Notes under the pieces: generated by a model
Seen by the model: the letters and a program-made list of their open reading frames with translations, nothing else
Databases searched by the model: none
Told to the model about the DNA's origin: nothing
Part shown: positions 823-60,475 of the stretch, piece after piece
Layout: each line of letters starts with the position of its first letter
How positions within the stretch are numbered: position 1 is the stretch's first letter
Assembly: GCA_964016885.1 (NCBI GenBank)
Contig: OZ024741.1
Span: 213,218,001-213,282,000, forward strand
DNA from: Eledone cirrhosa
Taxonomy: Eukaryota
Direction of reading: 5' to 3'
DNA length: 64,000 bases
Made by a program: the position numbers and the translations under genes

Positions 823-1125
823 TGGGAATCAGTAAAATCGAATCTCTGGCGGTCTGCAAGTAATTCGGTCTACTTATATGAAGTGATGGGTTAGCGAAGC
901 ACTCGATAAGATAGGTCTCAGAGTTATAACATACTTTAAATAGCTTGACAAATCGGACATTGTGGTAGGCCAAACTAACACACAATACATACCAAAGCAA
1001 TGAAAACACTAATCAGGTTGAGAAAAATAGACCTGGACAAATCAGACGAACGTTTGAAATGTTTCTCTGACTCCGAAATCAAATATCACAGAGGAATCAG
1101 TTTATCAACAGGTCTTCGTTCTGGT
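823..1125 (-). mobile_element. Diverged member of the ~610-bp HHR-bearing non-coding retroelement family
   Basis: Colinear similarity blocks to 47115-47925 and 26928-27798; 3' end joins (TA)n; contains the HHR at 1029-1115. Confidence 0.7.
1029..1115 (-). ncRNA. Type I hammerhead ribozyme, U3:A8 core variant
   Basis: AGACCUG-UUGAUAA-a-CUGAUUCC..GGAGUCAG-a-GAAA-CA..UG-UC^CAGGUCU: 7-bp helix I, 8-bp helix II, GUC site. Confidence 0.8.
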
Positions 1126-1391
1126 TAGGATCAGGAGTGATAAAATATGTTGCTGCTCTCCCGGCTGCTAATCGTATCTATATTTATCACGTGTTCCGGC
1201 ATTTTTTTTTTGAGTGTATGTCCGTGGGTGAGAGGATGTGGTGGAATGCTGGGTAATTTCCTTGTGATGTAGTTGATTCTTGGGAGCGATGTCCAATGTG
1301 TGTAATCCGTGGTTGGGTTGGTCGGAAGAGGGGAGTATATATATATATATATATATATATATATATATATATAGAGAGAGAGAGAGAGAGA

Positions 1392-1887
1392 GAGGGTGAA
1401 GTTGGAAATAGCATGGAAAATACATTTAAGGGTCTGTTTTTCTTTTGTTATCCTTTCTTTGATTCGTCAAAGTGACATTATTGAACAGATAACATTATTG
1501 AAAAAATGAGAGGGACAATTCTTTTTAAAAAAAGTTTTATAATGTATATTAAGTATTACCAGCTTCGATGTATTATTAAAATTCATCTTATCAAATGTTG
1601 AGTATTGAAATAAAAATTAAAAACAATTAATAAGAGTTAAAAACCAAAAAATTAAAGATTTAAAATTAAGTAAGTTTTCTTCCATCTTTCTTGCTCAAAA
1701 TTTGGCTGGAGAATGAGTTCTTGGTGATAGTGAATATAGCATCAGCTGTGTTTCTTCACAGAACAAAGTTGTTTTGGGAAACATCCTGTAAATATGTGTG
1801 TGTATATCTGATTGTGTTCCGTGCTATTTCCAATTTCACCTTTTCTCTATATCCACTGTTTTGTATAGAACACTTACTTCCGTTTTC
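1392..1887 (-). mobile_element. Decayed PLE pseudo-LTR-type element with short inverted ends and a degenerate U3:A8 HHR (~1553-1600)
   Basis: Inverted repeat ggtgaagttggaaatagcatggaa / ttccgtgctatttccaatttcacc. Minus strand reads UUGAUAA-GAUG..CAUC-GAAG-cugg-UA; related to 28964-29011. Confidence 0.55.
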
Positions 1888-2060
1888 TATATATATATAT
1901 ATATATATATATATATATATATATATATATATATATATATATATATATATATATATATATATAAATATATACTTTTCCCTTTATATATATATATATATAT
2001 ATATATTTATATATATATATATATATATATATATATATATATATATATATATATATATAT

Positions 2061-2195
2061 ATAGGGAAAAGTATGACCCCGACGAAAAGTATGCCGTCGG
2101 GTCATACTTTTTCCTATTACCAACTCTACTACCCTAAGTATTGAGTACTCTAATGCATTATGGTCCATCTGGTTCCTTACCAAATCTCCTTCGTT
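2061..2195. repeat. Fold-back pLTR tail fragment between (TA)n tracts
   Basis: Hairpin 2061-2117; the arm matches 38808-38833. Confidence 0.6.
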
Positions 2196-2599
2196 ATATA
2201 TATATATAAATAAATGGAGGAGAAGGAAATACATTCAAAAACAAATTTTACTCCTTACACAGTGTTTTATCTAGGCATAATATATATATATATATATATA
2301 TATATATATATATATATATATATATAAATATATATATATATATATACATATGTTCAAATTTAAAACATATATGTAGAGTGAAAAGAGAATAAATAATTTA
2401 CGAAGCATTTAGCATTTTGTACACGTATTTAGAGCAAATATTCTCAAATGATATATACTACTTTCTATCTACTACATAAATCTTTTAAATTTAAATAATT
2501 GATGTTATATAGGAGACGATCGACTTTCGTCAAATCGGACCGAGGGAACAATGTTTCCGTTGGTCTTTCCAATTGCTAATACTATCTATCGGTCGCAAC

Positions 2600-2727
2600 T
2601 CCAGGTAGAAGGAGCAACGTGAAATAAAGTGTCTTGCTCAAGGACATAACGCATCGCCTGGTCCAGGAATCGAACTCACAACCTCACGATTGCGAATCCA
2701 ATTCTCTAACCACTCAGCCACACGCCT
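2600..2727 (-). mobile_element. tRNA-derived SINE with CORE-like domain
   Basis: A box TGGCTGAGTGG, B box GAGTTCGATTCC, then tgtccttgagcaagacactt (CORE-like); second copy at 14316-14558. Confidence 0.85.
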
Positions 2728-2927
2728 ATATATATATATATATATACAGTACATATACACACACACACACACACACACACATACACACACACACAGTCAT
2801 ATATATATATATATATATATATATATATGTGTGTGTATATGTGTGTGTGTGTGTGGTGTGTATGTATATATATATGTGTGTGTGTGTGTATATATATATA
2901 TATATTATATTTAATATATTAATATTT

Positions 2928-3120
2928 AATATAGAAATGGCTTCTACAGGACTAGAACTATTCAATTCAAAATAAATCATCCGGAAAGCCCTGGTGATTT
3001 CTTTTAAATGAAACATTTCTAGTCCTGTAAAAGCCATTTCTATATTAAACATAATGTTTACACTCTACTAATATATTAAGTATCTTACTTACTGTTGTTA
3101 ACCCAATTTAATCTGGGACT
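2928..3120. mobile_element. Palindromic pLTR element with a back-to-back pair of decayed HHRs
   Basis: Inverted repeat centred near 2990; homologous to 60283-60478 and 25170-25275. Confidence 0.7.
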
Positions 3121-3260
3121 CACACCCATACACATATATACATGCACACACACACACACACACACACACACACACACACACACACACACACACACACACA
3201 TATATATATATATGTTATATATATATATATATATATATATATATATATATATATATATAT

Positions 3261-58044: not shown

Positions 58045-58095
58045 AGTTTAAGCAAAGAATCGCTGCTTTCACCCTTAACGGGATCTTCTGAAACT
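58045..58095 (-). ncRNA. Hammerhead motif with A4 (decayed homolog at 57185-57236)
   Basis: AGUUU-CAGAAGA-u-CCC.guuaa.GGG-u-GAAA-GCA..UGC-UU^AAACU. Confidence 0.6.
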
Positions 58096-58726
58096 AACAA
58101 AGTCAATCTGTAAACGCAGAACTGGATATTTCAAAAAACGTTGCAACCGGAGGAAGACAGGAAGACGATACTTTGGTTCGTGGTAACGTTCGCTGGCATT
58201 CATACATATATACATTCATATATATATATATATATATATATATATATATATATATATATATATATATATATATATATATATATATATATATATATATATG
58301 CATATATATATATATGTATATATATATATATATGTATATATATATATATATGTGTGTGTGTGTGTGTGTTTGTGTGTGTGTATATTTTCTGCATGATTGA
58401 GACTTGATTCCTTCGTTTGATGTTCTAAGTACCTGATGAATTTGAACGAATGAAGCAGTTCTATTTGAAATAAATATTTAGTTGTGTGAGGTGTATTATT
58501 TAACTAGGATTCCATTTCTTTCCTCTTACAAATATCATTCTTTAATCGTATATATACATATAGATATATAGATACACAGATAGGTAAATAGATAAATATA
58601 GACATACACACACACACTCACATAACTATATACACATATATATATATATATATATATATATATATATAATATATATATATATATATATATATATATATAT
58701 ATATATATATATATATATATATATAT

Positions 58727-59012
58727 AAAATAAAGTTAAATAAAAGTCAAATGATTAAAATTTAGCTTCGTTTATTACTGCTATATATATTTCAGTGACA
58801 GCCATCTTTGTGAATTAACAACCCAACAAGGAACTGGGCATATCAGAGTATTGACAATATTATACACCTAAACAACATATGTACTTGTCTATACCATACT
58901 AATTCAAACTGCCTGAAGAGGTCACAGCCAAAGATGGCTGTCACTGAAATATATATAGCAGTAATAAACGAAGCTAAATTTTAATCATTTGACTTTTATT
59001 TAACTTTATTTT
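58727..59012. mobile_element. Fold-back pLTR element
   Basis: 58727-58809 is the inverse of 58929-59012; contains the HHR at 58908-58962. Confidence 0.85.
58908..58962 (+). ncRNA. Minimal type I hammerhead
   Basis: ACUGC-CUGAAGA-GGU.c.ACAGCCA.aaga.UGGCUGU.c.ACU-GAAA-UAUAUA-UA^GCAGU. Confidence 0.85.
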
Positions 59013-59167
59013 ACACTACTCCGGAGTAACCAAACCAACCTGCGCACTTCGTCGAGTGCTCCAGCCTGCATACTGAGGTGTTGGTATACAACCAACATAA
59101 ACTCAATATATATATATATATATATATATATATTGGAAAATGTGTGTAATCCTTGGTACAGTTAGGT

Positions 59168-59412
59168 ATATTAAGACAGGGGGGAAGAAAAAATGGCTTC
59201 ACTTGTGCTTTCAACAAATTTATTTTCTTCACAAAATCCAAAAATAATTTTTTTCCGGATTAGAAAAAAATTTTAATTTATAAAATAATTTTTTTTAAGA
59301 AAAAAAAATTTTTTTTTCTAATCCGGAAAAAAATTATTTTTGGATTTTGTGAAGAAAATAAATTTGTTGAAAGCACAAGTGAAGCCATTTTTTCTTCCCC
59401 CCTGTCTTAATA
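59168..59412. repeat. Near-perfect ~105-bp-arm palindrome
   Basis: 59168-59272 is the inverse of 59307-59412. Confidence 0.9.
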
Positions 59413-59462
59413 TATATATATATATATATATATATATATATATATATATAATATATATATAC

Positions 59463-60245
59463 ACAGTTCAAGAGTAACCAATCTTAAAGAGAGAGATTGA
59501 GATAGTAGAGGAGATATGAGAGGAAAGATTGGTGAGTTAGTTAGAAGCCAAAGCGTAAAGGCATGTGCTCAATGTGCAATATGCAGCAGAAAGCAGCTAG
59601 GTGGCTGGGTTCATGCAGAAGTTAGGTGCGCAGAGCTGGAAATATTCATTAGTTAAGCAAAACAAGACCACAAATTTCACAAGGAAGACATTATTAAAAG
59701 ATTGTCAACATATTTAGTTTGATGTAAGGAATGTAGAGAATAATAATAATAATAATATTAATAATAATAATGCCCGTTTACAATTGTTTTGCTACTCCGT
59801 ATAATATTTCTGGATCAGATAACTATGTATCATAATTGATCTGGTTCAGTTGAAAATAATTAACATATTTCAAAGGAATATACATTAAAATAATGTTACA
59901 TAATATAATGTTCCATATATTAGTTTTTACTATGGTGCTTAATATATGGTACTTTATATTATGTAACATTATTTTAATGTATAATCCTTTGAGTTCCGAT
60001 GAGCCACTCTGTTTTTTTAAATATGTTAATTATTTTCAACTGAACCAGATCAATTATGATACATAGTCATCTGATCCAGAAATATTATACGGAGTAGCGA
60101 AACAATTGTAAACGGGCATTATTATTATTAATATTATTATTATTATTATTCTCTACATTCCTTACATCAAACTAAATATGTTGACAATCTTTTAATAATG
60201 TCTTCCTTATGAAATGTGTGGTCTTGTTTTGCGTAACTAATGAAT
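59463..60245. mobile_element. Non-coding fold-back HHR element, copy 2; C4-core HHR at 59993-60113 (+)
   Basis: Homolog of 3445-4382 with a different inversion breakpoint. Confidence 0.85.
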
Positions 60246-60362
60246 AATATATATATATATATATATATATATATATATATACGTAATTCCGGGTTGAGTC
60301 GGAGGTGACCACAGTAAGTAAGGTACTCAATACATTGCAGAGTATAAAAGTTTTAATATAGA

Positions 60363-60475
60363 TGAGATTCTACAGGACTAGAACTGTTTCATTCTTTAGA
60401 AATCATCAGGAATCCCTGAGATTCCTGATGATTTCTATATAAAGAATGAAGCAGTTCCAGTCCTGCAGAATCTCA
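60363..60475. ncRNA. Back-to-back inverted hammerhead pair (60366-60414 on -, 60417-60475 on +)
   Basis: (UGA)GAUUC-CUGAUGA-u-UUC..GAA-u-GAA(A/G)-CAG..CUG-(U/C)A^GAAUC(UCA). Confidence 0.8.

What the first reader, a model, noticed from the sequence alone, without database searches (positions are those of the whole stretch)
1029..60475. Very high hammerhead density: about 35 motifs from more than 15 families in 64 kb
Seen: many of the non-SINE islands lying between (TA)n tracts contain a whole, half or decayed HHR. About a quarter of the motifs belong to pLTR families of coding PLEs in this window; the rest are in non-coding partial-tandem or fold-back units of 0.3-1.2 kb. Known: PLE pseudo-LTRs carry minimal type I HHRs with palindromic stem III. 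Inference: a PLE-driven population of ribozyme-bearing non-autonomous elements makes up much of this genome's non-coding DNA.
Basis: partly seen in the sequence, partly recalled or inferred. Interest (0 to 1): 0.85.

Follow-up and report, generated by a model that had tools for sequence, protein, structure and literature searches.

The report
Hammerhead-laden Penelope-type repeats fill genome
This animal genome carries an estimated half a million copies of a self-cutting RNA motif in dozens of jumping-repeat families likely spread by Penelope-type retrotransposons, and many copies begin right at the predicted cut site, which hints that the motif really cuts in the animal.

Summary
Confirmed. 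The interval holds 43 type I hammerhead motifs (20 whole, 14 decayed, 9 half) plus 3 permuted ones, from about 20 families; shuffles give 0-3. The window is not special: 115 arbitrary 10-kb stretches give 168 motifs/Mb (CI 117-230), about 0.35-0.7 million in 3.0 Gb, in 36 clusters. Hammerhead-bearing units cover about 8.5% of the sample (20% of the window): large, but not 'much' of the non-coding DNA. At least 16 of 43 motifs are ends of coding Penelope-like elements (PLEs); about 9-11 lie in non-coding tandem monomers of 0.3-1.0 kb (retrozymes); the rest are unresolved. All this is of a known kind (Cervera 2014, 2020; Li 2026). What I did not find in print is the scale and a footprint: 21 of 39 copies of one long-stem-III family start 1-21 nt after the predicted cut and none in the 18 nt before it, while a minimal family stops mostly at the upstream ribozyme. 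That suggests cleavage in vivo; reverse-transcriptase stalling is the rival. No RNA data were available. The scan has already noted retrozyme arrays and the permuted motif elsewhere in this genome.

The parts
821..1195 (-). F1 unit, 5'-truncated copy of a ~612-nt non-coding monomer; whole hammerhead 1029-1115 with U3-A8 core, long stem III, GUC site
2064..2194 (+). Fold-back tail of a further hammerhead family (U3-A8 core, GUC site); starts within stem III; not counted among the 46
2913..3104 (.). F6 fold-back with two decayed motifs on opposite strands (2984-, 2991+)
3447..4379 (.). F7: truncated 3' end of a coding PLE; whole motif 3996- and inverted half motif at 4169-4260+
13193..13342 (-). 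F3 pseudo-LTR fragment (PLE-B family, diverged), whole motif 13340-
18983..19218 (-). Decayed motif (core about 19118-), family also at 49034-49101+ (half); origin unresolved
19309..19922 (-). Non-coding unit with whole motif 19548- (palindromic stem III); partial tandems in L208 and L073
20034..22772 (+). PLE-A, broken Neptune-like element (RT, CX4CxxC linker, C-terminal GIY-YIG); decayed motif at 22522+ in the 3' UTR
22869..23083 (+). F2 tail-only copy that begins just after the predicted cleavage site (no motif)
23634..25006 (.). F4 / PLE-D, Hydra-type 3' fragment with inverted front end; motifs 23752- and 24942+ (decayed)
25169..25278 (-). F6-related half motif and tail
26929..27799 (+). 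F2 partial tandem of a 611-nt non-coding monomer; half motif 26927-27041, whole motif 27519+ (U3-A8, long stem III, GUC)
28957..31226 (.). Two U3-A8 motifs (29006- decayed, 31177+) in the arms of a large inverted repeat
31760..32125 (+). Decayed relative of the 311-nt tandem family, motif 31975+
32321..33420 (.). Inverted pair, each arm with a hammerhead-like motif in S-G-C order (32346-, 33349+)
34131..34176 (-). F6-related half, decayed motif
35448..35866 (+). F2-superfamily unit, whole motif 35564+ (U3-G8, GUC)
36159..41390 (+). PLE-B, broken Hydra-type element: inverted F3 fragment (36241-), ORF 36256-38390, microsatellite-rich 3' UTR interrupted by F10, terminal F3 (41241+, decayed)
38782..38833 (+). 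3' half motif of the 2092 family
39189..40383 (+). F10 partial tandem of a ~1010-nt non-coding monomer; whole motif 40078+ (97-nt stem-loop II, palindromic stem III); 5' end 9 nt after the upstream cleavage site
41411..42465 (-). F8 partial tandem of a ~430-nt non-coding monomer, motifs 41712- and 42227-; the most abundant family in the genome sample
45076..45661 (+). Second F4 / PLE-D 3' fragment, decayed motif 45542+
45770..46140 (-). 3' end of a PLE-A-like element, decayed motif 46003-
46252..47097 (.). F5: truncated 3' UTR of PLE-C with inverted front; half motif 46427-, decayed motif 47012+
47116..47924 (-). Diverged F2 partial tandem, motif 47459-
49405..49916 (-). Non-coding unit with motif 49816- (weak stem I); tandem in L209 and L139
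49980..53914 (-). PLE-C, broken Hydra-type element; motif 50174- in the 3' UTR, inverted fragment with motif 53830+
57184..58200 (.). F14 motifs 57190+ (decayed) and 58090- (family-wide U4A core); third S-G-C motif 57346- lies between them
58432..58463 (+). Decayed F6 motif
58728..59011 (.). F9 fold-back: half motif 58810-, whole motif 58913+
59466..60246 (.). F7 fold-back (PLE 3' end): half motif 59874-, whole motif 59996+
60289..60475 (.). F6, young 138-nt unit with inverted front; whole motif 60409-, decayed motif 60425+
60607..60749 (+). Whole motif 60631+, just outside the given interval

Best explanation
The window holds 46 hammerhead-type motifs from about 20 repeat families, part of them at the ends of broken Penelope-like retrotransposons (PLEs) and part in non-coding 0.3-1.0-kb tandem units that were likely pasted into (TA)n tracts by PLE enzymes. 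Shown: the motifs, their genome-wide density, fixed 3' ends joined to (TA)n, variable 5' ends, no ORF in four families, and ORF linkage in five others. Inferred: the PLE protein nicks (TA)n and starts reverse transcription at a fixed internal site of the RNA, which gives the fixed 3' end; a second start on the other strand gives the inverted arm (as shown in vitro for an anole PLE, PMC11167929). Inferred, about 60%: the ribozyme cuts a share of the templates in vivo and so sets their 5' end. A long-stem-III motif (F2) would cut alone and yield tail-only copies; a minimal palindromic motif (F10) would cut mainly in a two-ribozyme transcript. Uncut or circular templates give the copies longer than one unit that can seed new rounds.
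For: Density and controls. Conservation not forced by the scan: of 193 sampled motifs, all 16 with U3 have A8 and none has G8, though U3-G8 was allowed; 146 of 175 short stems III are palindromic. No upstream PLE ORF in F2 (0 of 29 other loci), F8 (0 of 24), F10 (0 of 24), F1 (0 of 23), with head-to-tail periods of 611-615, about 430, 1000-1014 and 612 nt. Upstream RT/endonuclease in F7; F3 runs into the PLE-B ORF in L154 and L166. PLE-B, C and D carry the Hydra CxCX5C linker (B also RWK and DKT, C also DKT), a clade that inserts into (TA)n. F2, all 39 non-self hits of a tail-only query: 21 start at +1..+21 (19 by BLAST, 2 re-read by eye at +1 and +2), 3 at +22..+47, 0 at -18..0, 2 at -19, 13 further up (P=2e-5 against uniform). 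F10: 5 of 31 terminal units stop at +1..+21 of their own site, but 5 of 8 longer copies stop there at the upstream site (7 of 13 with copies from the other query and the window; P=0.016 and 0.023).
Against: No RNA evidence was obtained. Most F2 5' ends lie 5-21 nt after the site, not at +1. F8 shows no clear pile-up (6 of 37 uncensored ends at +6..+25). The 2092 family mostly passes the site and ends in loop II. F6 has a stable stem III yet few tail-only copies. The families for the end test were chosen after a first hint, the hits are the 40 closest to one query, and the +1..+21 window was set after seeing data. The anole PLE did not need cleavage in vitro and showed no RNA ends at the site (PMC11167929); 8 of 9 Xenopus dimers did not cleave. 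No non-coding family was matched to a particular coding partner.
Confidence: 0.7

Rival explanations
1. The ribozymes do not cut in vivo to any extent. 5' ends pile up because reverse transcriptase stalls at the folded hammerhead, or because the first AT-rich stretch after it pairs well with the (TA)n target.
For: Ends sit at TA-like words 5-21 nt after the site, just past stem I. F2 has the stronger fold and the stronger pile-up. Cleavage was dispensable in vitro.
Against: Hard edge at the site: two copies start at +1 and +2 and none at -18..0. In F10 the same sequence stops copies far more often upstream than downstream.
Confidence: 0.3
2. The non-coding units are copied from covalently closed RNA circles by a reverse transcriptase that runs round the circle, as proposed for retrozymes. 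This can coexist with the best explanation.
For: Copies exceed one unit and cross the cleavage site; 5 of 29 F2 copies are exactly one monomer long; long arrays of F8 exist (L301, L315). circRNAs are shown for coral, mussel and axolotl retrozymes (PMC7229834).
Against: A sealed circle offers no end at the cleavage site, yet 21 of 39 F2 copies start there. The one-monomer peak also coincides with a TA-like word that could aid joining.
Confidence: 0.35
3. All units are only 5'-truncated ends of coding PLEs; there is no separate non-autonomous population.
For: True for F3, F4, F5, F7 and PLE-A (16 of 43 motifs); possible for F14 (endonuclease 173 nt upstream at one locus). Cervera 2014 read most dispersed motifs this way.
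Against: F1, F2, F8, F10 and the 311-nt family repeat head-to-tail at periods too short for an ORF, with none upstream in 23-29 loci for each of the four searched.
Confidence: 0.08
4. The motifs are chance matches in AT-rich repetitive DNA.
For: About 1 false hit per window is expected at low scores; 1498+ and one sampled hit look false.
Against: Shuffles give 0-3 per window and 3 and 6 per 1.15 Mb against 193; U3-A8 covariation.
Confidence: 0.01

Closest known systems
Minimal type I hammerheads of metazoan PLEs (Cervera & de la Pena 2014, PMC4209133; parts 1-2 of 4 read)
   Same: Many heterogeneous families per genome, mostly dispersed singles, pairs on opposite strands 100-700 bp apart, extra nucleotide before stem II, palindromic stem III, U3-A8 variant.
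   Different: Published counts are about 2,000-9,000 per genome; here an estimated 0.35-0.7 million, with a looser descriptor (long loop II allowed), so the figures are not strictly comparable. Several families here have long stems III.
Animal non-LTR retrozymes (Cervera & de la Pena 2020, PMC7229834, passages; Li, Clavereau & Pollet 2026, bioRxiv 10.64898/2026.07.22.740005, parts 1-3 of 5)
   Same: Non-coding tandem monomers with one type I hammerhead each, low GC, co-occurring with PLEs and proposed to derive from pseudo-LTRs.
   Different: Here mostly dispersed copies of 0.3-2 units with fixed 3' ends in (TA)n; monomers up to 1010 nt. Highest published counts: 120,000 in the axolotl (28 Gb) and >6,000 in 16 families in a coral. 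circRNA not tested here.
Hydra- and Neptune-clade PLEs (Craig et al. 2021, PMC8557442; passages and section 11)
   Same: C-terminal GIY-YIG, CxCX5C linker, RWK and DKT motifs, (TA)n target, partial tandems with an inverted 5'-truncated front copy.
   Different: All four copies in the window are broken; clade assigned by motifs only, no tree built.
Type-SGC permuted hammerheads (Eckert et al. 2023, PMC10085705; passages)
   Same: Three window motifs have the order site - GAAA - CUGAUGA with covarying stems I and III.
   Different: Stem II appears to be completed by a separate upstream strand; host is an animal repeat; cleavage untested.

Membership tests
Type I hammerhead ribozyme | CUGANGA and GAAA core, NUH site, three stems, above chance | tested here: met
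   about 20 whole motifs in the interval
Type I hammerhead ribozyme | 3-8 tertiary pair kept (C3-G8 or U3-A8) | tested here: met
   16 of 16 U3 cores have A8 in the sample; exception: 14 of 24 F1 copies have C3-A8
Type I hammerhead ribozyme | Self-cleavage | not testable with these tools
   only indirect 5'-end footprint
Animal non-LTR retrozyme (F1, F2, F8, F10, 311-nt) | Non-coding monomer repeated head-to-tail with one hammerhead per unit | tested here: met
Animal non-LTR retrozyme (F1, F2, F8, F10, 311-nt) | At least two complete hammerheads in tandem in some loci | tested here: met
   F2 L014; F8 L071, L301; F10 L194, L209; 311-nt L044. For F1 only two listed places 609 nt apart, not read
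Animal non-LTR retrozyme (F1, F2, F8, F10, 311-nt) | Expressed as circular RNA | not testable with these tools
   no RNA holder listed
Animal non-LTR retrozyme (F1, F2, F8, F10, 311-nt) | Sequence kinship to a PLE pseudo-LTR | tested here: inconclusive
   no match to the four PLEs of the window; genome-wide partners not searched
Animal non-LTR retrozyme (F6, F9, F14) | Head-to-tail monomers | tested here: inconclusive
   F6 junction pattern found nothing, but the index can miss common words (one search missed the window itself)
EN+ Penelope-like element | RT plus C-terminal GIY-YIG endonuclease | tested here: met
   weak RVT_1 hit, below cut-off; motifs read from translations
EN+ Penelope-like element | Hammerhead in the terminal repeat; inverted truncated front copy | tested here: met
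   PLE-B, C, D; decayed motif and no inverted copy seen in PLE-A
Hydra clade | CxCX5C linker, RWK and DKT motifs, (TA)n target | tested here: met
   RT phylogeny not built
Type-SGC hammerhead | Block order S-G-C with covarying stems I and III | tested here: met
   13 family copies among 18 hits (5 hits are AT-rich false ones); shuffles 0-1
Type-SGC hammerhead | Direct stem II and cleavage | tested here: inconclusive
   stem II seems to need an upstream strand (read by eye); cleavage untested

The most novel reading that the evidence does not exclude
This genome holds the densest known population of hammerhead ribozymes, about half a million in dozens of families, and the 5' ends of its insertions are a fossil record of cleavage in vivo: ribozymes that fold alone cut at every site, minimal ones cut mainly in two-ribozyme transcripts, and so the ribozyme sets which copies can spread.
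Probability: 0.4. Interest if true: 0.78.

Novelty: new variant of a known kind. Interest (0 to 1): 0.55.

Why it matters
The role of hammerheads in PLEs and retrozymes is open: a 2020 review calls their in vivo activity 'still a mystery' (PMC7761336), and the only purified PLE did not need cleavage and showed no cut RNA ends (PMC11167929). A genome with young families of both monomer-type and dimer-type motifs, and a natural C3-A8 mismatch subfamily as control, lets insertion ends test this by computation alone. It also suggests that about a tenth of this genome is PLE-related DNA that Rfam does not recognise.

Tried and rejected
Rfam: no hammerhead family hit; the microRNA hits are microsatellite hairpins. 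Pfam: nothing at 0.001 for 7 ORF pieces, one sub-threshold RVT_1 hit; protein search gave 8 unnamed relatives. Idea that the window is a hot spot: rejected (P=0.14; the four flanking 10-kb stretches hold 0, 0, 1, 0 motifs). Idea that F6 is an inherited two-polarity, viroid-like element: rejected, since the fold-back junction differs among copies and one of 24 has none. Idea that F3 is a short solo element: rejected; the apparent 5' limit was a microsatellite and an inversion. F6 head-to-tail junction search: 0 hits, uninformative. Pooled 5'-end histogram over all families: spoiled by SINE and simple-repeat matches in clusters 35, 43, 48, 49; those rows were dropped. Sequencing runs: no RNA holder listed; contigs of two runs of unknown kind were laid on F2, confirming the 3' end at 27276 joined to TA, but their depth is no copy number and was not used. 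Candidates rejected as motifs: 1498+, 1481+, 2079+, 28712-, 39957-, 45726-, 55509-, 22738-; 612+, 48223+ and 48445- left out as doubtful. Papers not held: Lunse 2017 and de la Pena 2010, so their counts, and the S. mansoni total, were not seen; supplements were not read and may hold higher counts. Searches for a cephalopod hammerhead census or a 5'-end analysis found only 235 Rfam hits in the giant squid.

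
Full report
Setting. The window is G000:C2:213218001-213282000 of a 3.0-Gb genome, AT-rich, with 136 TA tracts and many copies of one SINE. From recall the SINE looks like an octopod one; this was not tested.

Observation. A strict type I scan finds 9 motifs against 0.05 and 0 per shuffle; a relaxed one finds 19 at score >=17 against 0.45. Probes made from motifs in other loci find 38 motifs against 0-3. Adding motifs read by hand, the interval holds 20 whole or near-intact, 14 decayed and 9 half type I motifs and 3 in permuted order, about 20 families; 34 of 52 non-SINE islands hold one. 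Rfam sees none.

Genome-wide. 115 evenly picked 10-kb stretches (1.15 Mb; four neighbours of the window left out) give 193 motifs at score >=19, 148 with an intact core and score >=24; two shuffles give 3 and 6. That is 168/Mb (CI 117-230), or 0.35-0.7 million; without three tandem arrays 124/Mb. They fall into 36 clusters, one probably false. 53 of 115 stretches hold none, so the motifs are clumped, and the window is no outlier (P=0.14). Features the scan did not demand: all 16 U3 cores pair with A8; 146 of 175 short stems III are palindromic. Hammerhead-bearing units cover 8.5% of the sample (CI 6-11) and 19.8% of the window; PLE ORFs add 1.8% and 10.3% (the library is built from sampled families, so rare or old ones are missed).

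What carries the motifs. Four broken PLEs lie in the window. PLE-A has a CX4CxxC linker (Neptune-like); PLE-B, C and D have the Hydra linker. F4, F5 and PLE-A motifs lie in their 3' UTRs or inverted front copies. F7 has RT and endonuclease upstream in about 9 of 24 other loci (11 of 30 motifs), and F3 continues into the PLE-B ORF in 2 of 24. That ties 16 of 43 type I motifs to coding elements. F2 (611 nt), F1 (612), F8 (about 430) and F10 (about 1010) are head-to-tail monomers with no upstream ORF in 29, 23, 24 and 24 other loci; with the 311-nt relative, 35564, 19548 and 49816 they account for 9-11 motifs. F6, F9, F14 and three small families remain unresolved. In the genome sample the non-coding tandem families supply about half of the hits (F8 54 and the 311-nt family 26 of 193, arrays included).

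Ends. Copies of a family share one 3' end joined to (TA)n, 90-400 nt past the cleavage site, and differ at the 5' end. F3, F6, F7, F8 and the 311-nt family often have an inverted arm; F1, F2 and F10 do not. In vitro, an anole PLE starts reverse transcription at two internal sites and extends both target strands (PMC11167929), which would give both features.

Footprint of cleavage. To avoid selecting for the ribozyme I queried with the tails alone. Of all 39 non-self F2 hits, 21 start 1-21 nt after the GUC site (two re-read by eye at +1 and +2), 3 at +22..+47, none at -18..0, 2 at -19 and 13 further up, four of them near one full monomer. For F10, 38 of 39 non-self hits were scored: 5 of 31 terminal units stop at their own site, but 5 of 8 longer copies stop just after the upstream site. 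F2 has a long stem III and F10 a 6-nt palindrome, so the contrast fits monomer versus dimer cleavage as described for such motifs (PMC4209133).

Permuted motifs. Following a lead from earlier notes, I found that 32346-, 33349+ and 57346- have GAAA upstream of CUGAUGA; 13 family copies show covarying stems I and III (57346- read by eye, its stem I is imperfect).

Comparison. Dispersed, diverse PLE hammerheads, opposite-strand pairs and the U3-A8 variant were described in 2014; retrozymes and their PLE origin in 2020 and 2026. Published totals are >6,000 in a coral, about 9,000 in Xenopus and 120,000 in the 28-Gb axolotl, far below this estimate per Mb, but descriptors differ and the S. mansoni total was not seen. 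I found no cephalopod census or 5'-end analysis.

Verdict. Real, of a known kind, at an unusual scale, with an indirect and testable sign of cleavage in vivo. Interest 0.55.

Noticed in passing
window 32321-33420 and 57289-57680: Hammerhead-like motif in S-G-C order with covarying stems I and III; stem II seems to be completed by an upstream strand flanking a hairpin. Noted before elsewhere in this genome.
   Followed up: partly
window 2064-2194 and 38782-38833; L227, L107, L197: Very abundant family (29 hits in the 10-kb stretches) whose hammerhead has a U3-A8 core and GUC site but is nearly always cut short in loop II with a fold-back, so motif scans miss it.
   Followed up: partly
F1 loci L218-L240: Two core variants in one family: U3-A8 (10 motifs) and mismatched C3-A8 (14); a natural inactive control.
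   Followed up: no
window 58050-58090; L170-L183: F14 keeps a U4A core in nearly all copies; endonuclease ORF ends 173 nt upstream at one locus (L177/L182).
   Followed up: partly
window 60289-60475; L096-L119: F6 is a young (99% identical) 138-nt unit with fixed 5' and 3' ends and an inverted front in 23 of 24 other copies, with several different junctions.
   Followed up: partly
window 28718-31631: 2.9-kb inverted repeat with 99% identical arms around microsatellites, each arm with a U3-A8 motif.
   Followed up: no
window 48508-48845, 59172-59409, 48212-48456: Fold-back units in (TA)n with PLE-like shape but no clear motif; repeated elsewhere in the genome.
   Followed up: no
window 35103-35934, 3262-3382, 23113-23204: Further repeated tail family with fixed end at TA tracts, linked to the 35564 motif.
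   Followed up: no
window 55900-57100: Broken RT-like reading frames that look like a non-LTR (LINE) element, by recall of the motifs; no Pfam hit.
   Followed up: no
window 6435-10440, 16230-18780, 54170-54430, 61480-63240: Clusters of a tandemly arranged SINE; 7.1% of the window against 3.6% of the sample.
   Followed up: no
L301, L315, L044: Long tandem arrays of F8 (L301, L315) and of the 311-nt family (L044) turned up in arbitrary stretches.
   Followed up: no
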